Shown here one piece after another: positions 6,607 to 52,296 of a stretch of 64,000 bases of DNA. A program made the position numbers and the translations under genes. Location: the IMG/VR virus record IMGVR_UViG_3300028591_000121, positions 32,001 through 96,000 of that record. One strand, given 5' to 3'. The number at the start of each line of letters is the position of its first letter. The stretch's first letter is position 1. Under the pieces are notes generated by a model that ran no database searches, was not told the DNA's origin, and saw only the letters and a list, made by a program, of their open reading frames with translations. Source of the DNA: a virus (lineage: Duplodnaviria > Caudoviricetes).

Positions 6607-7230
6607 ATGAGCACAACAAAGAAAATCCTCGTAGCTTGCGAGGAATCACAGGCGGTCTGCAAAGCTTTCCGCAAACTTGGTGCGGAAGCTTATAGTGCAG
6701 ACATTCAAAGCTGTTCTGGAAGCCATCCAGAATGGCACATCAAAGGGGACGTTCTTCCTCTTCTGAATGGCGGACTGTTCAGGACTCAGGATGGGAAAGT
6801 ACACAAGGTGGATCATTGGGATCTAATAATAGCCCATCCGCCGTGTACTTATCTTACTCGATGCGGAGCAACGCATATGTATCCGCACGGACAACTGAAT
6901 CAGGAACGGTATCAGAAAGGACTTGAAGGTCGGAAGTTCTTCATGTCCTTTTTCAATTGCTCCGCTTCTCATCTCTGTATTGAGAATCCTACTCCATTGC
7001 GGATTTTTGAACTCCCCAAGGAATCCCAAGTCGTTCAACCCTTCGAATACGGAAATCCGTACACGAAACGGACTCTCCTATGGTTGAAGGGACTGCCGGA
7101 ACTCAAACCTACGAACATCGTCGACCCAATCGGCAGTTGGGTAGCGATGCATAAGACCCCTAAGCAGAGGTCAAAGACTTTTAGCGGAATTGCGGAAGCT
7201 ATGGCTTCCCAGTGGTTACCGCTGATTTAA
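6607..7230 (+). CDS. Short phage-type DNA (cytosine-5) methyltransferase
   Basis: ILVACEES, AHPPCTYL (catalytic PC), IENP, QPFEYG, KRTLLW, RSKTFSGIAEAMA. Confidence 0.85.
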   Translation: MSTTKKILVACEESQAVCKAFRKLGAEAYSADIQSCSGSHPEWHIKGDVLPLLNGGLFRTQDGKVHKVDHWDLIIAHPPCTYLTRCGATHMYPHGQLNQERYQKGLEGRKFFMSFFNCSASHLCIENPTPLRIFELPKESQVVQPFEYGNPYTKRTLLWLKGLPELKPTNIVDPIGSWVAMHKTPKQRSKTFSGIAEAMASQWLPLI

Positions 7231-19939: not shown

Positions 19940-20890
19940 ATGAGCGATACTTCTAGAACTTATGGCGTTGGCGGTGCTCCGCATTATACGATGGTTGATT
20001 TCTATTGCCAGTCTCGCAAGCGCAAGGTCAATGAGAATACGATTAACCTTCAGCGCACTCGTCTCAACACTGTACTGAACGAATGGGAACAGAAATACAA
20101 CGTGATCATCCTGGAAAATCAGATCATTGGGCTGAACGGAATCATTGTTCAGCGGTGGTGCAATGACTGGAGCGAGACGAAAGCACCGTCGACAATGAAT
20201 AACTATATTTCTTTCCTTAACAACTTCCTCTACTGGGCTTTCAAGATTGGATTTGTACAAGAAGATTACTCAGGAATCCTTAATTCTCAGAAGCTCATTG
20301 ACCCGGAAACTCTTCCAGAAGACGAACGTCCTGTAGAAAAGTTCTATACGCATGAAGAAGTTGAAGCTCTGATTAAAGAGATCGAAAAGAGTCAGGACAG
20401 GAACTGGTTGAGAGACCGTGCAATGATCACACTGATTCTTTTCAGCGGACTCCGCAGAGAAGAGATTGCAAAGCTGACAATTAAACAGGTTCTCAACTAC
20501 GGAAAAGGATATGTTTACTGTCAGCGTAAAGGTGGAGCTTGGAGAATGGCTGAAGTTTCAGAAGAATGGTACAAGTATTTGCAACCTTACCTCGACAGCC
20601 GTGAAGATACTTATGATGACTCCCCTCTCTTCACCACTGAAGGCGGAACAGCCATTACAAAGAAGGGAATCTATAACACAATCCGCAAATATCAGGACAG
20701 GCTTGGACTTGTAAGAGGTTCTCACGTACTTCGCCATGTATTCATCTCCGAGGTTGAGAAGAACGGTGGGATTGCAGTCGCAAGAGACTGTGCAAATCAC
20801 AAACACATCCGTATTACTGACAGATATGATCACACGACAGCAGACCAGAGGAAAGTTGCAGTAAACGGGATCAATTACTTCGGTAAGTAA
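19940..20890 (+). CDS. Tyrosine recombinase (XerC/D-like)
   Basis: RDRAMITLILFSGLRREE, HVLRH, NH...TDRYDH catalytic set. Confidence 0.9.
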   Translation: MSDTSRTYGVGGAPHYTMVDFYCQSRKRKVNENTINLQRTRLNTVLNEWEQKYNVIILENQIIGLNGIIVQRWCNDWSETKAPSTMNNYISFLNNFLYWAFKIGFVQEDYSGILNSQKLIDPETLPEDERPVEKFYTHEEVEALIKEIEKSQDRNWLRDRAMITLILFSGLRREEIAKLTIKQVLNYGKGYVYCQRKGGAWRMAEVSEEWYKYLQPYLDSREDTYDDSPLFTTEGGTAITKKGIYNTIRKYQDRLGLVRGSHVLRHVFISEVEKNGGIAVARDCANHKHIRITDRYDHTTADQRKVAVNGINYFGK

Positions 20891-21117
20891 GCCTTGTTTG
20901 CCCCATCTTCCGGGACAGACTTAGACATACTGCTTACAACTACACACAAGCACAAACAACAAACACACAACGATTCACGATTAACAATTCACAAAACACA
21001 GCCACTGCGTGTTGGCGGGGCTGATGTTTAAAAGAATAAGTTAGCTGAAATTTGTTGATGTGTTTTTGTTTGTGCATTTTTTATGCCCAAGTGACCCAAG
21101 AAAGGATGAACAAATAT

Positions 21118-22116
21118 ATGGAAATGAAAAAAGCCCGGCGAGTACAAGCCAAGATCAAGCTTGCTATCGCAGGAATTTCTGGCAGTGGCAAGACGATGAG
21201 CGCACTGCTTATGGCTTACGGAATGGTGAAGGAATCTCATCCTGGCATTTCTGACAGTGAAGCATGGGAAAAGATCTGCCTGATCGATACCGAGAACGGC
21301 TCCGGCTCACTGTATTCGAAAGCCAAAGTCAAAGGAACAACAACAACGATTGGTGAGTACTACACCATCGACATTGAACCGCCCTTCACTGTTGACAAGT
21401 ACATCGAGTCAATCAAGACCGCAGAAGAAAACGGTATTGAGGTGCTGATTATTGACTCCGTATCCCATGCGTGGGCTGGCGAGGGTGGTGCTCTCGACAA
21501 ACAGGCTGCAATCGCTGCCAACTCTCCGTCAGGCAACTCCTACACTGCTTGGAGACAGCCGAAGAAGGATCAGAGTCAGCTGATGAACACGATTCTCCAG
21601 TGCAAGATGCACGTTATCTCCTGCATCCGTGCAAAGACTGAATATGTGCAGGACAAGGATGACAAGGGCAAGACCCGTGTTCGTAAGGTTGGTCTTGGGC
21701 TGATTACCCAGGGTGAAACCGACTACGAATACACCACAGTCTTCATGCTGAATCAGGAACACGTTGCTTCCAGTACTAAGGACAGGACTGGACGTTTCGA
21801 CGGGCAGTACTTTGTCATTACCCCTGACACGGGGCGTGAAGTGATTCGCTGGCTCGACGATGCTCCTGTCGAAGAGCCGAAGCCTGAGATTACGAAGACT
21901 GAGACCCCTGTTGAGACTGCTCCGGCTGATCCCGCAAGAATTGAAGCGGCTAAGAAGTCCATTAGCGATGTTGTTTCCAATCTCATGGAAGCAGGAAAGA
22001 CCAGAAGTGAAATTGCTGCGGTAACCAAGCAGTACTGCGGTGTAGCCAACTACCTCAAGGTAGACGATATCGAAAAACTGAAGGCCACGTACCTTGCGCT
22101 GGCCGCTATGGAATAA
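21118..22116 (+). CDS. Sak4-like AAA ATPase (ssDNA annealing)
   Basis: GISGSGKT Walker A, IDTENGS, LIIDSVSHAW; adjacent to SSB. Confidence 0.85.
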   Translation: MEMKKARRVQAKIKLAIAGISGSGKTMSALLMAYGMVKESHPGISDSEAWEKICLIDTENGSGSLYSKAKVKGTTTTIGEYYTIDIEPPFTVDKYIESIKTAEENGIEVLIIDSVSHAWAGEGGALDKQAAIAANSPSGNSYTAWRQPKKDQSQLMNTILQCKMHVISCIRAKTEYVQDKDDKGKTRVRKVGLGLITQGETDYEYTTVFMLNQEHVASSTKDRTGRFDGQYFVITPDTGREVIRWLDDAPVEEPKPEITKTETPVETAPADPARIEAAKKSISDVVSNLMEAGKTRSEIAAVTKQYCGVANYLKVDDIEKLKATYLALAAME

Positions 22117-26570: not shown

Positions 26571-27371
26571 ATGGGTAATGAGTTGAAGGTTTTCCAGAAC
26601 GAACAGTTTGGTCAGGTACGTGTGATGATGGTCGACAAGGATCCGTGGTTTGTTGCTGCGGATGTGTGCAAGGCACTTGAACTCAAGAACTACAACACGT
26701 CTCTCCAGCTTCTTGATGATGACGAAAAAATGACTATCCATAATGTGGATAGTCATTCAGGTCAGCGTGGTGGAGCGCAGTTCACAACACTTATTAACGA
26801 AGCAGGACTTTATTCTCTGATCCTTCGTTCCCGCAAGCCTGAAGCCAAAGCTTTCAAGCGTTGGGTAACTCACGAGGTGCTTCCGTCGATTCGTAAGCAC
26901 GGTATGTATGCGACTGACGAAACTCTTGATAAGATGATCGGAGATCCTGATTTTGCAATCAAGCTCTTTACGACTCTCAAGGAAGAGCGTGAGAAGAATA
27001 AGAAGCTTCAGGCTACCGTCGAAACTCAGGCTAAGAAGATCGAAGCTGACAAGCCCAAGGTTCGTTACTATGACATCATTCTCCAGTGTGAGGAACTCCT
27101 TACTCCTACTCAGATCGCCAAGGACTATGGCATGAGTGCGATCAAGTTTAACAGGTTGCTTAGTGAACAGCACATTCAGTTCCGTCAGGGTAAGAAGTGG
27201 ATTCTGTATCAGAAGTACGCAGACCTTGGATGGGGACAGAATCAGACCAGTGAATATTACACGGATTGGGGGTTCAATTGCGACACCGCTCTTCGCTACA
27301 CTCAGGTAGGACGCAGAGGAATCTATGACAAGCTCAAGGCTAATGGAATTCTCCCGATCTGTGAACGTTAA
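26571..27371 (+). CDS. BRO-N / KilA-C phage antirepressor
   Basis: PWFVAADVCKAL, INEAGLYSLI, FKRWVTHEVLPSIRKHG, TQIAKDYGMSA. Confidence 0.92.
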   Translation: MGNELKVFQNEQFGQVRVMMVDKDPWFVAADVCKALELKNYNTSLQLLDDDEKMTIHNVDSHSGQRGGAQFTTLINEAGLYSLILRSRKPEAKAFKRWVTHEVLPSIRKHGMYATDETLDKMIGDPDFAIKLFTTLKEEREKNKKLQATVETQAKKIEADKPKVRYYDIILQCEELLTPTQIAKDYGMSAIKFNRLLSEQHIQFRQGKKWILYQKYADLGWGQNQTSEYYTDWGFNCDTALRYTQVGRRGIYDKLKANGILPICER

Positions 27372-27394
27372 TTAATTTAGAACGGAGTATTGAA

Positions 27395-30300
27395 ATGCCA
27401 ACGATTGAATTCGAAAACTACCATTCTCACAGTTGTATCAGCAACGGTTCGTCCTTGGCAGATTCCCCGGTTCTCTATGATCAGTACGCAAAGGTATACA
27501 AGGAACGTGGAATGCACTGTCTCTTTGCTGTTGAACATGGAAACCGGGGAGACGTATTCCGCTGCTATTCTCTGACAGAACAGTATGCGGAACAGTCTGA
27601 ACCTTATAAACTCACAACTCTTGCAGGAGCGGAAGCTTACTTTGTAAACGACCGCAAAGCAAAAGATAGAACAAATGCCCATCTGATTCTGATTGCCAAA
27701 GATCAGGAAGGTTACTATGAACTGAATGAGATTCTCAGTGAGTCATATGAGACGGGTAAGTATCACAAGAATCGAATCGACTGGGAGTTACTTGAGCGGC
27801 TCGATCCAACCCATTTCGTGTGTACTACCGCATGTGTCGCTGGCCCAGTAGGTAAGATGGATGAGAGTGCGGTTTGCAGACTCGCCAGTATCTTCGGTAA
27901 GAACTTCTACCTTGAAGTCCAGGCACATCTTCAGGCTGATCAGATTGAGCATAACAAGAAAGTACTCTATCTCTACCATAAGTACGGTTATCCTCTGATC
28001 TTTGCTACTGACTCCCATTACATCGACAGCAAGGACAAGATTCTCCGTGATCAGATTCTCCTCTCTTCGCACATTACTTACGAGGACGAAGGAAGTTTCG
28101 ATTTGTTCCTTCCTACCGCTGAAGAAGCTTACGAACTGATGAAGACTCAGGGAGTACTTTCTGAAGCTCAGATTCGTGAAGCTTTCGACAACACGCTCCA
28201 GTTCCGGGATTACCCAGGCGTAACATTTACGCATGAGAAGAAGATTCCGAATATCTATCCCAAGCTTTCACAGGAGCAGAGGGACAAGATGTACTGGACG
28301 ATGTGTCATGAGAAGTACGAGGAGTTGTATGGAGATACACCAGACGAACAGAAGCTTGCCGAGTACGAAGATCTTGAGAACAACGAACTCCATCCCGTCA
28401 TCGAAACCCGCACAACAGATTACTTCTTGGATGTTAAAGCCACTATTGAAAAGGGCATTAAATACGGGGGAATCCTTACCCACACAGGAAGAGGTTCTGG
28501 CGTGTCGTTTGCTTCCAATCATCTTCTTGGTTTCACGTCAATCAACAGACTCCGCTGTCCAGTAACTCTTTATCCTGAGCGTTTCATTTCTGCGGAACGT
28601 CTTAAAGCCGGCAGTATTCCCGATCTGGATTTGAATATCGTAGCTCAAGAACCTTTCCAGAGAGCGGGACGTGAGATATTCGGAGAGTTTAGTTTCCTTC
28701 CGATGATTAAGTACGATACGAACAAAGCCGGGGCTGCGTTCAAAATGCTAGCTAGGGCTAATGACATTCCTTTTGAGACAGCGAATCTGGTATCCAAGCA
28801 GTTGAAGAGATACGATACTGAACTTGCTTATGCGGATGAAGATGAAAAGGACATGATTCAGCTTGAGGATTATGTCGAACCACGATTCCTTGATCTGGTT
28901 AAAGAATCAGAAGCTTACCGTGGAATCATAATGAGGTTTGGCGTACATCCTTGCGCTCATCTGATGGTTCAGGGAGATATCCGCAGACTCTTCGGTACAA
29001 TTATTATCGACTCAGAACACAGCAAGAAAGACCCAGTAAGATGTGCTTATATTACTGGTGATATGGCTGACAAATTTGGTTATGTTAAGCAAGACCTTCT
29101 GATAGTGGAGTGCGTGAAACTTGCAGAGATGGCTTATGAAGCCGCTGGGATTGAGATGCCTACGGTGGATAAGTTGATTGAGATTACTAAGAACGATAAA
29201 CCTACTTGGGATATCTACGCTAAAGGCTTGACCCTGGGTGTGAATCAGGTCGAGAAGCAGAAGACTTCCGACAGAGTGAAACAGTTCAAGCCCAAAAGTG
29301 TGTCTGAGATTTCCGCATTCATTGCTGCCATCAGACCGGGCTTCAAGACGATGCTCAATTCCTTCGTAGCACGAGAACCTTTTACTTACAACATTCCAAT
29401 CCTCGACAATATTCTCCAGACAAAAGATATGCCTTCCTCTTGGTTACTTTATCAGGAACACATTATGACAATAGCTAAGGTTGCGGGACTGACTCCGGCT
29501 GAAGCTTATGTTCTGATTAAGGCGATTTCGAAGAAGAAGAAGAAAGTTATCGAAGAGAAGAAGGAGAAGTTTATCAACGGTCTGACCGAGGTTCTTTGTT
29601 CTCAAACTCACGACTCAGTAGAGAAAAACAAAGACATTTCAATGCAAGTATGGCAGATCGTGGAAGATTCTGCGTCCTATATGTTCAACGCTTCTCACTC
29701 ATTTTCTGTAGCGTGTGACTCGTTATACGCCGCATATGTTAAGGCTCACTACCCTATCGAGTTTTACAAGACTCTGATTACTCTCTATGCGGATAAAGGT
29801 AAGAAGGACAAGATCGCTGAAGCTAGGACTGAAGCTTTGAAAGGATTTGGGATCAGGTTTGTACCGCCCAGATTCAGGCAGGACAACAGAACCTTCTCGA
29901 TCAATAAAGAAGAGAACACAATCTCCGACGTTCTTGTTTCCGCAAAGAGTATGGGTAAGCAGGCGGCTGCCGATCTCCTCAAATACAAGGACTACGATGG
30001 AAAGTACTTTGTTGATCTGGCTTACGATATCTCAAGAAACACATCGATCTCCAAGACTATGATGGAGATACTGATCAAGATGGATTACTTCCAGGAGTTT
30101 GGTTCTGCGGGTAAACTGATGGGTCTTTGGCAGGAACTCAGGGAAGGCAAGAACAAACTCAATGATAAGTTGATCGAAAAAACATTTAATGCGCGGCTTG
30201 AAATCCTGCATGAGATGGAAGACAAGATGCCCGAATCAGAGTTGCCAATGGGTTTCCGCATCAGGTTTGAGATTGAAACGTTTGGTACTCCGATCTCTAC

Positions 30301-50749: not shown

Positions 50750-50857
50750 TATGCGGTGTTGGAAGAGGTAAACAAAAACAGAAACAGTTGAGATGGCGGG
50801 TTACCGACGGGGACTTGAGATTCCGTCTCCTATCAGGTGCAAATCCTGATCCGCATA
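50750..50857 (+). ncRNA. tRNA-like RNA A1
   Basis: TATGCGG/CCGCATA stem; D arm TTG-GAAGAGGTAAA-CAA; T arm ATCAGG-TGCAAAT-CCTGAT; no anticodon loop. Confidence 0.75.
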
Positions 50858-50962
50858 AGAATAACGGCTGCTTTCTTCGGAGAGCAGGAAGGATGAAAAC
50901 CACTTCCGTCGAGGTATCGGCAGCAGCAAACACTCATGCGTAGGTAAAGGCAAATACCAAAT

Positions 50963-51109
50963 TGTGTGGTGACGGAAGAGGTAAACGGGCTAGAGGGAGA
51001 TAGCCACGAAAGCGGAGTTAACGTTACCGCTTGAGAATAAGGACTAACGTCGTGCGACCCTACATCTGCGAAAAGGCTATCCTGTTAGGTGCAAATCCTA
51101 ACCCACACA
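50963..51109 (+). ncRNA. tRNA-like RNA A2
   Basis: TGTGTGG/CCACACA; D arm ACG-GAAGAGGTAAA-CGG; GATAGCC/GGCTATC stem; GTTAGG-TGCAAAT-CCTAAC. Confidence 0.75.
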
Positions 51110-51938
51110 TTCTTATATTCAGTTTAGGAGAATCAGCGTATGTGGTTTAAGAAATTTCTTGCAAGACATAAGAAGTACGATCTTCGGAAAGAGCTTGGCG
51201 ATTGGGTTGAGAAAAACCTTGGTGCTGAGTATGTTGATGAAGCACTTGAGAAATACGATAAGTTAAACAGCGGTGTTCCTATCGGCGGATTCCAAGAAAC
51301 GATGTTGTTTGTTGATATGGTCGAGACGGTGAAGGCGGAGTTGTCTAAATGAGTGAACCGAATTGTTATGGTTGTAAGCATGTGATGGATGTGTTTGGTA
51401 ACTATGTCGAGTGCGGGGAACTTGCCAAGACTGGAACACACATGTTTGTTAACTGGTATTACTGGCGAGACGGCAGCCCTGACGAGTGTCCGCTGAAAGC
51501 TAAAGCAGACAAGAAGGAAGAGCCGAAACGTTGGAAGGATGTCTTCCATTACGGGTTTGGTTATACAGTTTGCCCGTATTGTGGAGATGAGACTGGTTGG
51601 TATAACCCGGCAAGCGAACGTTTCCAGTCTGATCTCGAAAACAATCAGCGGGAACGTTGCCCGAAGTGTGGTAAGCGAGTTTATGCAAGAAAGGGCTGGA
51701 TTATGAATCAGCCCCCAGGAGATTGAGTTGTTATGGCACAAGATTTGCATTATGACATGAGAGATTATCCGCCGGACGATCCGTTCTGGACGGAGTCAAC
51801 AGAGCCAGTGATTGTACGTTGTAAAGATTGTAAGTACGGCGAGGAGTGTATACCCCCGTGTGATGATCGTTACTGTCGTTTATATGATCAACGTCATCCC
51901 AGTCATTGGTTTTGTGCGGATGGTGATACAGACGATTA

Positions 51939-52161
51939 AATGCGGTGGCGGAATAGATTACCATCATTCCTGCGGAGAGTAGATAAGGACGTGTCTCTCA
52001 ATTAAGTACACCTGATCACAGGGGCGCAGGTCACGGTTAAAGTAGACGCTTAAAGGGGAGTCAGAGGCGGCATAGCTATAACGAGAGTATAGCCATAGAA
52101 ATGTGCGAAGCGAACAGCCCGAAGTGCTTTGACATGTGAGGTGCAAATCCTCACCCGCATT
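51939..52161 (+). ncRNA. tRNA-like RNA A3 with structured D-loop insertion
   Basis: AATGCGG/CCGCATT; GCG-GAATAG[insert]GTAGA-CGC; GTCAGAG/CTTTGAC stem; GTGAGG-TGCAAAT-CCTCAC. Confidence 0.75.
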
Positions 52162-52167
52162 GATTGT

Positions 52168-52296
52168 ATATGGCTAAGATCAGAAAGGAGATCTGAATCA
52201 GCACAGGGTCTGGTGACTGCTTCTATTTCTCGTAACCGTGAGAGTTAAGTCACGGGGATGCACAAGGTTCGATTCCTTGTTGTGCTGAAGCCATAT
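52168..52296 (+). ncRNA. T-arm-containing structured RNA B
   Basis: ATATGGCT/AGCCATAT outer stem; TCAGCACA/TGTGCTGA; GTGACT/AGTCAC; ACAAGG-TTCGATT-CCTTGT. Confidence 0.65.

What the first reader, a model, noticed from the sequence alone, without database searches (positions are those of the whole stretch)
50750..52161. Family of three tRNA-shaped RNAs with no anticodon arm
Seen: A1 (50750-50857), A2 (50963-51109) and A3 (51939-52161) share a 7-bp acceptor-like stem, a TG linker, a tRNA-Leu/Ser-like D arm (GGAAKAG-GTARAC), a purine-rich linker, a long stem with a variable insert in place of the anticodon and variable arms, and a 6-bp T stem with invariant loop TGCAAAT. Stems covary between copies (D: TTG/CAA versus GCG/CGC; T: ATCAGG/CCTGAT, GTTAGG/CCTAAC, GTGAGG/CCTCAC). 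The 7/6 geometry differs from the canonical 7/5 and no CCA is encoded. Inference: tRNA-elbow mimics (decoys for anticodon nucleases or tRNA-binding proteins, RNase P/Z processing signals, or precursors). Their Leu-like D arm in a TAG=Leu genome is suggestive but unproven.
Basis: partly seen in the sequence, partly recalled or inferred. Interest (0 to 1): 0.8.

Follow-up and report, generated by a model that had tools for sequence, protein, structure and literature searches.

The report
Anticodon-less tRNA-Leu look-alike phage RNAs
Three neighbouring genes in this 119-kb rumen phage encode RNAs that keep the upper half of a leucine tRNA but have no anticodon arm; they belong to a large, unannotated RNA family of phages that infect Bacillota (including model phage SPP1), and its function is unknown.

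Summary
A1 (50750-50857), A2 (50963-51109) and A3 (51939-52161) share:
- a 7-bp acceptor stem followed by UG;
- a leucine-type D arm;
- a linker and one long helix that ends 2 nt before a 6-bp T stem;
- the T loop UGCAAAU.

None has an anticodon stem-loop. ARAGORN and Rfam 15 find nothing here.

A covariance model built from relatives hits the window only at these three places (72, 62 and 53 bits). I found more than 100 distinct relatives in IMG/VR and 52 places in bacterial genomes, nearly all Bacillota. Model-confirmed copies occur in the cultured phages SPP1, Leuconostoc Ln-9, Bacillus Goe17 and, more divergent, Listeria A511. All are unannotated.

All three stems covary (97.8% of cells paired against 80% in shuffles; 0 of 500 shuffles reach the covariation score). 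Many members sit inside phage tRNA arrays, 2-9 nt from real tRNAs. The central part is hypervariable and is swapped between relatives, and A3 carries an 85-nt module inserted in its D loop.

The closest described analogue is T5 RNA1, annotated 'tRNA-like stable RNA with unknown functions'. T4 rnaC and rnaD are similar in placement.

TAG is indeed read as leucine in this phage. However, the family is common in phages with no sign of recoding, so I see no link.

The function is not established. I read these as non-decoding tRNA-Leu mimics matured by the tRNA-processing enzymes. The scan has reported this family before in other genomes.

The parts
50750..50857 (+). A1, 108-nt family member. It has a 7-bp acceptor, UG, a 3-bp D stem with loop GAAGAGGUAAA, a 14-nt linker AAACAGAAACAGUU, a long helix (50790-96 / 50823-29), CU, and a 6-bp T stem with loop UGCAAAU. 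The base after the acceptor stem is A.
   Evidence: Sequence. The minimum-energy fold reproduces the acceptor, D and T stems. Model R1 scores it 72.1 bits, but A1 was one of the 45 sequences the model was built from, so this is not an independent test. Core homologues L004 and L161 show compensatory changes at two core pairs.
50963..51109 (+). A2, 147-nt family member with the same frame. The D stem is ACG/CGG with an A.G mismatch; alternatively the model closes it at CGU after a 38-nt insert. The long helix is 50999-51005 / 51075-81. The base after the acceptor stem is U.
   Evidence: Sequence. R1 scores it 62.2 bits. No homologue of its core was found among the fetched loci.
51939..52161 (+). 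A3, 223-nt family member with the same frame, plus an insertion in the D loop. The base after the acceptor stem is G.
   Evidence: Sequence. R1 scores it 53.2 bits, with a 90-nt insert placed in the D loop. Its core resembles that of L091 at 73% identity.
51957..52041 (+). An 85-nt structured module inserted between GGAAUAG and GUAGA of the A3 D loop. It contains the stem CCUGCG/CGCAGG, the hairpins GAGAG..CUCUC and CCUG-AUCA-CAGG, and the conserved stretch AAGUACA.
   Evidence: The same module, at 78-93% identity, sits at the same D-loop site in L005, L097, L120, L025 and L172-L176, which have different cores and acceptor stems. Relatives carrying the A3 core but no insert join GGCGGAATAG directly to 52042 (loose ends in X20 and X19). 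About 25 members have insertions at this site.
50858..50962 (+). The 105-nt spacer between A1 and A2. It is non-coding, holds the hairpin CTGCTTTC-TTCG-GAGAGCAG, and has no terminator.
   Evidence: Sequence. No terminator-like site was found. It has the highest contig depth in RNA run X18. It may be part of the same precursor.
52168..52296 (+). A4, a fourth structured RNA of a different type. It has an outer stem ATATGGCT/AGCCATAT, an 8-9-bp inner stem, a normal T arm CAAGG-TTCGATT-CCTTG, and no recognisable anticodon arm. It is not a member of the family.
   Evidence: Fold z = -3.1, with 0 of 200 shuffles as stable. It is not hit by R1 or by ARAGORN. It is covered by an RNA-run contig.

Best explanation
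A1, A2 and A3 are genes for non-decoding RNAs derived from a class II leucine tRNA.

**What is kept and what is replaced**
- They keep the acceptor stem, U8, the Leu-type D arm, the last two bases before the T stem (usually AU, the U in the place of U48) and a T arm. So they should fold into the tRNA 'top half' with its elbow.
- The anticodon arm is replaced by a short linker.
- The variable arm is enlarged into a long domain that is exchanged freely between relatives.

**Inferred mechanism**
1. They are transcribed within a long operon or a tRNA array.
2. They are cut out by RNase P and a 3' tRNA-processing nuclease, and probably receive CCA.
3. The 13-bp acceptor/T stack and G55 keep them out of translation.
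4. The conserved top half acts as a mimic that occupies a host protein which reads tRNA-Leu shape. Candidates are LeuRS or a tRNA-targeting defence enzyme.

**Shown:** the family, its structure, its derivation from tRNA-Leu, its inability to decode, and its placement among tRNAs.

**Inferred:** the processing, the stability, the binding partner and the benefit to the phage.
For: **Family size and distribution**
- More than 100 distinct members came from one capped IMG/VR scan.
- The model gave 112 hits in 100 loci.
- There were 52 hits in bacterial genomes, nearly all Bacillota.
- Cultured phages SPP1 (78 bits), Ln-9 (85), Goe17 (72) and A511 (39) carry it.

**Structure**
- 97.8% of cells are paired against 80% in shuffles, and slid controls give 31-48%.
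- The covariation score is 0.489 against 0.128, reached by 0 of 500 shuffles.
- Nine of the 16 pairs show changes on both sides.
- The 5' side of the T stem was not in the search pattern, yet it pairs 6 of 6 in nearly all hits.

**Derivation from tRNA-Leu**
- The D arm GGAAUAGGUAGAC is the same as in adjacent phage tRNA-Leu(UAA) genes. Those genes score 27-37 bits on the model.

**Non-decoding**
- ARAGORN calls no member a tRNA.
- Rfam's tRNA model does not match.
- The 82 non-redundant cores share no motif apart from the 3' YCAU.

**Processing context**
- Members lie on the same strand as tRNAs and 2-9 nt from them in several arrays.
- No promoter or terminator lies near A1-A3.
- In one RNA library, contigs cover the RNA elements and the spacer but not the ORFs between them. 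This is weak evidence.

**LeuRS plausibility**
- In Aquifex, deleting the anticodon arm of tRNA-Leu keeps charging at 0.45 relative efficiency. U8-A14, G19-C56 and variable-arm orientation are critical there, and all are retained in this family (PMC2377443).

**No partner gene**
- No phage protein is a regular neighbour (at most 11 of 98 loci). This points to a host partner.
Against: - No experiment shows that these RNAs are stable, processed, CCA-tailed or bound by any protein.
- The discriminator is A in only 56% of members, and A2 has U and A3 has G. A73 is required for leucylation, so charging cannot be the general function.
- G55 replaces U55, and the G18-U55 contact is reported as critical for LeuRS.
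- The arms are far longer than LeuRS tolerated in that study.
- Core folding energies are mostly no better than shuffled sequence (median z -0.65). The variable part could therefore be tolerated filler rather than functional.
- A1-A3 lie about 53 kb from this phage's own tRNA cluster.
Confidence: 0.5

Rival explanations
1. A natural 'tRNA scaffold'. The conserved frame serves only for excision and stability. The exchangeable arm, and the D-loop module, is the working part and differs between phages: an aptamer, a sponge or a regulator.
For: - The cores are hypervariable and are exchanged as modules between otherwise similar members.
- The A1-type core keeps its helix through compensatory changes, and its 14-nt linker is conserved.
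- The D-loop module is 78-93% identical across members whose other parts differ.
Against: - Most cores fold no better than shuffled sequence.
- No motif is shared between cores.
- The A1-A3 cores have no antisense target in their own genome; the best matches are 12 nt at E about 0.5.
- The frame is conserved in sequence well beyond what excision alone should need.
Confidence: 0.2
2. Cis-acting punctuation. The tRNA-like fold only marks sites where RNase P and 3' nucleases cut a polycistronic transcript, which sets mRNA ends. The released RNA itself has no role.
For: - A1-A3 lie between small ORFs in one long + strand operon with no promoters or terminators nearby.
- In Ln-9 the element ends the early operon.
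- In SPP1 it lies between late genes 9 and 11.
Against: - A minimal hairpin would be enough for this purpose. Instead, 84-265-nt elements with conserved D loops and conserved inserted modules are maintained.
- Many members lie inside pure tRNA arrays, where there is no mRNA to punctuate.
- There are tandem copies with only a spacer between them (A1 and A2).
Confidence: 0.12
3. Y-RNA-like partners of the phage's Ro-like protein (DUF2828/DUF7788, genome 27315-28805, minus strand).
For: - This phage encodes the Ro-like 'RNA-binding protein' (phrog_850, E 2e-128).
- Bacterial Y RNAs mimic tRNA, according to Chen et al. 2014 as cited in PMC12282133.
Against: - DUF2828 is present in only 3 of 50 member-bearing virus records, and in 0 of 24 that are at least 90% complete.
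- The gene lies 55 kb from A1-A3.
- From my own knowledge, the ends of YrlA lie in the Ro-binding stem and not in the acceptor stem.
- No Y RNA family in Rfam matches.
Confidence: 0.05
4. Working tRNAs, or precursors of them, with an intron or an odd anticodon domain. In this phage, for example, they could be extra leucine suppressors for TAG.
For: - The D arm is Leu-type and the genome reads TAG as Leu.
- Some members lie next to tRNA(CUA) genes.
Against: - No member has a 5-bp stem with a 7-nt loop in the right place.
- Removing the core leaves no anticodon.
- The phage already has a separate tRNA(CUA).
- The family is common in SPP1, the Leuconostoc phages and A511, where nothing suggests recoding.
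- A 13-bp acceptor/T stack is known to disfavour EF-Tu, as in tRNA-Sec. This last point is from my own knowledge.
Confidence: 0.03
5. Decaying tRNA-Leu pseudogenes, or recombination scars, with no function.
For: - The middle part is variable.
- Homing endonuclease genes (HNH, GIY-YIG) are nearby in some loci.
Against: - The family has hallmarks that differ from tRNA-Leu: the UGCAAAU loop and the 6-bp T stem.
- Compensatory changes are maintained across hundreds of sequences in unrelated phage lineages, including 28-kb lytic phages.
Confidence: 0.03

Closest known systems
Phage T5 RNA1 (NC_005859 30501-30644, annotated 'tRNA-like stable RNA with unknown functions')
   Same: It lies in a phage tRNA region. 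It has an acceptor stem and a Leu-type D arm (CCGGAAUUGGUAGACGG), about 85 nt in place of the anticodon and variable arms, and then a T arm. It scores 26 bits on model R1.
   Different: It has a normal 5-bp T stem with loop UUCAACU (U55) and a 7/5 geometry. Its host is a proteobacterium. Its score is no higher than that of real tRNA-Leu genes, so it is an analogue or a very distant relative, not a member.
Phage T4 species 1 and 2 RNAs (rnaC, rnaD; NC_000866 70908-71171)
   Same: They are small stable RNAs of unknown function, encoded directly after tRNA-Arg in the phage tRNA cluster. rnaC ends with a T-arm-like hairpin.
   Different: R1 does not hit them. They have no Leu-type D arm, and the acceptor pairing is imperfect.
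Class II tRNA-Leu, especially phage tRNA-Leu(UAA)
   Same: It has the same D arm sequence, U8, a 7-bp acceptor stem, and a long arm that ends just before the T stem.
   Different: tRNA-Leu has an anticodon arm, a 5-bp T stem and the loop UUCAAGU. It is found by ARAGORN and by Rfam.
tmRNA tRNA-like domain
   Same: It has an acceptor stem and a T arm, with a large insert in place of the anticodon arm.
   Different: tmRNA is 260-400 nt and has G3.U70, pseudoknots and a tag reading frame. Here pair 3:70 is UA, AU or CG, and ARAGORN finds no tmRNA.
Bacterial and phage Y RNAs (YrlA) with Ro60
   Same: They mimic tRNA and are non-decoding. This phage encodes a Ro-like protein.
   Different: The topology differs, and there is no co-occurrence with the Ro-like gene across the family.

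Membership tests
Canonical tRNA (Rfam RF00005) | Anticodon stem (5 bp) with a 7-nt loop between the D arm and the variable region | tested here: not met
   A1-A3 have none, and neither do any of the more than 100 relatives.
Canonical tRNA (Rfam RF00005) | Detected by tRNA finders or by the Rfam tRNA model | tested here: not met
   ARAGORN finds 0 genes in the window. Rfam gives no match even at E up to 10.
Canonical tRNA (Rfam RF00005) | 7-bp acceptor stem plus a 5-bp T stem with a UUC-type loop | tested here: not met
   The geometry is 7 + 6 bp and the loop is UGCAAAU.
   R1 scores 72.1, 62.2 and 53.2 bits. A1 was in the training set. The positions were read directly from the sequence.
   The acceptor pairs were used to set the ends of each member, so that helix is partly circular. 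The D and T stems were not used in this way.
Phage 'tRNA-like stable RNAs' (T5 RNA1, T4 rnaC/rnaD) | Encoded within or next to the phage tRNA cluster | tested here: not met
   This holds for many family members. A1-A3 themselves lie about 53 kb from this phage's tRNAs.
Phage 'tRNA-like stable RNAs' (T5 RNA1, T4 rnaC/rnaD) | Accumulates as a discrete stable RNA | not testable with these tools
   Only contigs from RNA libraries were available. They cover the elements but cannot show RNA ends or levels.
tmRNA | G3.U70, a tag reading frame, pseudoknots, and detection by ARAGORN | tested here: not met
   
Y RNA / YrlA | Co-occurrence with a Ro-type protein gene, and an Rfam match | tested here: not met
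   DUF2828 is present in 3 of 50 member-bearing records. There is no Rfam match.

The most novel reading that the evidence does not exclude
Phages of Bacillota use a dedicated tRNA-Leu-derived chassis to display fast-evolving RNA domains, or to offer a decoy. The chassis is kept out of translation by a 13-bp acceptor/T stack and G55. Its conserved top half captures a specific host factor, either LeuRS or an anti-phage enzyme that attacks tRNA acceptor ends or elbows. That would make this a widespread RNA-based counter-defence or host-takeover device, present even in 28-kb lytic dairy phages and in SPP1.
Probability: 0.2. Interest if true: 0.85.

Novelty: new variant of a known kind. Interest (0 to 1): 0.7.

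Why it matters
Stable tRNA-like RNAs of unknown function are annotated in the GenBank records of T4 and T5. This family shows that such RNAs are widespread:
- It has hundreds of members with a sharply defined architecture.
- It is found across phages and prophages of Bacillota from rumen, gut, dairy and soil.
- It is present in tractable systems (SPP1 with B. subtilis, Leuconostoc dairy phages, Listeria A511).
- It is missing from Rfam 15 and from every GenBank annotation I checked.

That makes the question 'what are non-decoding phage tRNA mimics for?' directly testable by genetics. On the practical side, these genes are currently read as empty intergenic space, or as spurious small ORFs such as SPP1 'gene 10'.

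Tried and rejected
- **Rfam.** Neither gathering nor E-value mode gave a real match. The only hit was Giardia U6 at E 0.21 on the A1 linker, which I judge to be chance.
- **Whole-region BLAST against cultured phages.** No match. Only a short member used as query found relatives.
- **Conserved neighbouring protein.** None found.
- **DUF2828 Ro-like protein as partner.** Rejected, because it is present in only 3 of 50 member-bearing records.
- **Antisense targets of A1-A4 in their own genome.** Only chance-level matches.
- **The abundant unannotated RNAs of Listeria phage CKA15 (PMC12282133).** I checked whether these were family members. They are not, and CKA15 lacks the A511 copy.
- **T4 rnaC and rnaD.** Not hit by the model.
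- **Search for relatives of A4 through its T arm.** This found a different mini tRNA-like element instead.
- **Literature searches.** Searches on tRNA-like RNAs lacking an anticodon, on the sequence strings themselves, and on the SPP1 genome paper found no description of the family. The csRNA catalogue of PMC10690425 may contain it, but its sequences are not held.
- **RNA-library contigs.**
  - The parts without cover, and the joint 52049->52153, could not be interpreted.
  - They cannot show RNA ends, CCA addition or expression level.

Full report
**Observation**

The window is bases 32001-96000 of a complete 119,416-bp IMG/VR virus record. Related DNA occurs in sheep, goat and bovine gut or rumen samples.

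A1, A2 and A3 lie on the + strand in two non-coding gaps of a long operon of small ORFs. No promoter-like or terminator-like site lies nearby.

Each element has:
- a 7-bp acceptor stem, then UG;
- a 3-bp D stem with a GGAAKAGGUARA-type loop;
- a linker of 8-14 nt;
- a long helix whose 3' strand ends exactly 2 nt before a 6-bp T stem;
- the loop UGCAAAU, and the 3' acceptor strand directly after the T stem.

A3 also has an 85-nt insertion (51957-52041) between GGAAUAG and GUAGA of its D loop.

The 13-mer around the T loop occurs three times against 0.1 expected. ARAGORN finds no tRNA or tmRNA in the window. Rfam 15 gives nothing at gathering scores, and nothing meaningful up to E = 10. Single-sequence folding energies are ordinary.

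**A large family**

- In almost all of them, the three bases 5' of the pattern were not searched for, yet they complete a 6-bp T stem. An acceptor partner followed by UG and the Leu-type D arm lies 84-265 nt upstream. That gave 105 distinct sequences.
- On an alignment of 45 short members, the frame structure pairs 97.8% of cells. Shuffles give 80% and slid controls give 31-48%.
- The covariation score is 0.489 against 0.128, reached by 0 of 500 shuffles.
- Five acceptor pairs, two D pairs and two T pairs show changes on both sides.
- The acceptor pairs were used to define the ends of each member, so that helix is partly circular. The D and T stems are not.
- A covariance model from this alignment hits the window and the whole genome only at A1, A2 and A3. 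A1 was among the 45 training sequences; A2 and A3 were not.
- The model gives 112 hits in 100 IMG/VR loci. These include copies that the pattern missed, with other T-stem sequences but the same loop.

**Where the family occurs**

- A stricter pattern found 52 places in bacterial genome assemblies. Nearly all are Bacillota: Lachnospiraceae, Oscillospiraceae, Leuconostoc, Levilactobacillus, Fructobacillus, Oceanobacillus, Neobacillus, Alicyclobacillus and Flavonifractor.
- BLAST with one member found about 114 records of cultured phages of Bacillus, Enterococcus, Lactobacillus, Leuconostoc, Listeria and Weissella. In the 40 records listed, no RNA feature lies under the match; most have no feature there at all and a few have a CDS. 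Some of these hits touch only the D arm and may be real tRNA-Leu genes.
- The model confirms Leuconostoc phage Ln-9 at 84.6 bits. There the element follows the HNH gene at the genome end.
- It confirms Bacillus phage Goe17 at 72.3 bits, in the tRNA region.
- It confirms SPP1 at 78.3 bits, at 6647-6755 between genes 9 and 11, under the doubtful minus-strand 'gene 10'. The 2018 SPP1 genome paper does not mention it.
- It finds a divergent copy in Listeria phage A511 at 38.9 bits, 3 nt upstream of tRNA-Asn.

**Context**

- ARAGORN never calls a member a tRNA.
- Members often lie inside phage tRNA arrays on the same strand, 2-9 nt from real tRNAs.
- Adjacent phage tRNA-Leu(UAA) genes carry the same D arm, but they have a normal anticodon arm and a 5-bp T stem with loop UUCAAGU. 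The family therefore derives from, or copies, tRNA-Leu.
- No protein family is a regular neighbour. The most frequent are terminases, portal, primase, SSB and homing endonucleases, in at most 11 of 98 loci.

**The variable part**

- Of 96 cores, 82 are non-redundant.
- They share only the 3' end YCAU.
- Most consist of a short linker, or a mini-hairpin of the form UUA..UAA, followed by one long branched helix. That helix stands where the variable arm of a class II tRNA stands.
- Their folding energies are mostly no better than shuffled sequence.
- Some modules are clearly constrained:
  - The A1-type core recurs in L004 and L161, with two compensatory pairs and a conserved linker.
  - The A3 D-loop module recurs at 78-93% identity in nine other members with different cores and acceptor stems.
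- Contigs from related phages carry the A3 core without the D-loop module, and carry other family members in the place of A1 and A2. The parts are therefore exchanged as modules.

**Expression**

Only contigs of public runs could be laid on the region. In one sheep-gut RNA library, contigs cover 50860-51077, 51940-52049 and 52153-52266, but not the ORFs at 51110-51939. This is a weak hint and does not show transcription.

**Mechanism**

Shown:
- a structured RNA family derived from tRNA-Leu;
- it cannot decode;
- it is placed like a tRNA gene.

Inferred:
- release by RNase P and a 3' nuclease, followed by CCA addition;
- exclusion from translation by the 13-bp stack and G55;
- action as a mimic of the tRNA-Leu top half.

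[quoted passage not shown] All are kept here. The anticodon arm, which LeuRS does not need for charging, is gone (PMC2377443).

Against charging as the general function:
- A73 is present in only 56% of members, and A2 and A3 lack it.
- U55 is replaced by G55.
- The arms are very long.

Binding without charging, or another protein that reads the top half, therefore remains the better guess.

**Rivals**

- A scaffold for cargo RNAs.
- Pure processing punctuation.
- Y-RNA-like partners of the phage's Ro-like DUF2828 protein. I rejected this as a general explanation, because the protein occurs in only 3 of 50 member-bearing records.
- Odd decoding tRNAs.
- Pseudogenes.

**Known relatives**

- T5 RNA1 is annotated as a 'tRNA-like stable RNA with unknown functions'. 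It has a Leu-type D arm, no anticodon arm and a normal T arm, and scores 26 bits.
- T4 rnaC and rnaD lie directly after tRNA-Arg but do not match the model.

The kind of RNA is therefore annotated in public records. This family is a distinct variant that I did not find described. It is defined by 7/6 geometry, the UGCAAAU loop, swappable arms and D-loop modules.

**TAG recoding**

- Late genes on the minus strand carry many in-frame TAGs: 8 in portal, 5 in a tail protein and 10 in a 1659-aa ORF.
- In a 120-homologue portal alignment, with the three closest homologues set aside, 4 of the 8 TAG columns are Leu in 78-98% of the other 117. One more is Ile/Leu and one is Thr/Leu.
- The genome has a 76-nt tRNA(CUA).
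- The family also occurs in SPP1, the Leuconostoc phages and A511, where nothing suggests recoding. I see no specific link.

**Earlier notes of this scan**

After I had reached this reading, I found that the scan has reported the same family in at least eight other genomes, and TAG=Leu in this genome. From those notes I took the leads to SPP1 and to T5 RNA1, and I checked both here.

Noticed in passing
G000 20270-22006 (-), outside the window; also late genes at 98-119 kb: TAG is read as a sense codon in the late genes. In the portal alignment, TAG columns are overwhelmingly Leu in homologues. The + strand genes around A1-A3 have no in-frame TAG.
   Followed up: partly
G000 29149-29224 (-), 2.8 kb before the window: A 76-nt tRNA with anticodon CUA, a 3-bp D stem, a 7-nt variable loop and A73. 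It is the likely leucine amber suppressor, even though it lacks a long variable arm.
   Followed up: partly
G000 27315-28805 (-) = L181 9316-10806: A Ro-like 'RNA-binding protein' (DUF2828 + DUF7788, phrog_850) next to the tRNA cluster. The family is in 701 cultured phage records.
   Followed up: partly
L181 9045-9234 (-) = G000 about 27044-27233: A group I intron match (Rfam RF00028) at 49.9 bits, just under the gathering score of 50. It lies between the DUF2828 gene and an 89-nt 'tRNA-Ile(UAU)'.
   Followed up: no
window 52168-52296 (+): A4, a well-folded RNA (z -3.1) with an outer 8-bp stem, an inner 8-9-bp stem and a normal T arm, but no anticodon arm. Its 5' hairpin holds an AAGGAG sequence. 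It does not belong to the family.
   Followed up: partly
window 52049 -> 52153: One RNA-library contig joins the end of the A3 D arm to the last bases of the T stem, skipping the core and most of the T arm with a single A in between. It could be a deletion variant, an RNA product or an assembly error. I could not tell which.
   Followed up: no
L191 (Listeria phage A511) about 28890-29035 (-): A second unannotated tRNA-like element, with a normal T arm (TAAGG-TTCGACT-CCTTA), a 6-of-7 acceptor pairing and no anticodon arm. It lies upstream of the A511 family member.
   Followed up: no
L197-L208 and about 80 other IMG/VR loci: A different mini tRNA-like element, AAGCGG..ACAAGG-TTCGATT-CCTTGT-GCCGCT, nearly identical across many gut phage contigs and not called by ARAGORN.
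   Followed up: no
L175, L103, L076, L170 cores: Some family members carry a second, normal-looking T-arm hairpin (GGTTCGAATCC type) inside their variable arm. In L175 it comes with a 7-bp acceptor-like pairing, so it looks like a tRNA-like fold nested inside another.
   Followed up: no
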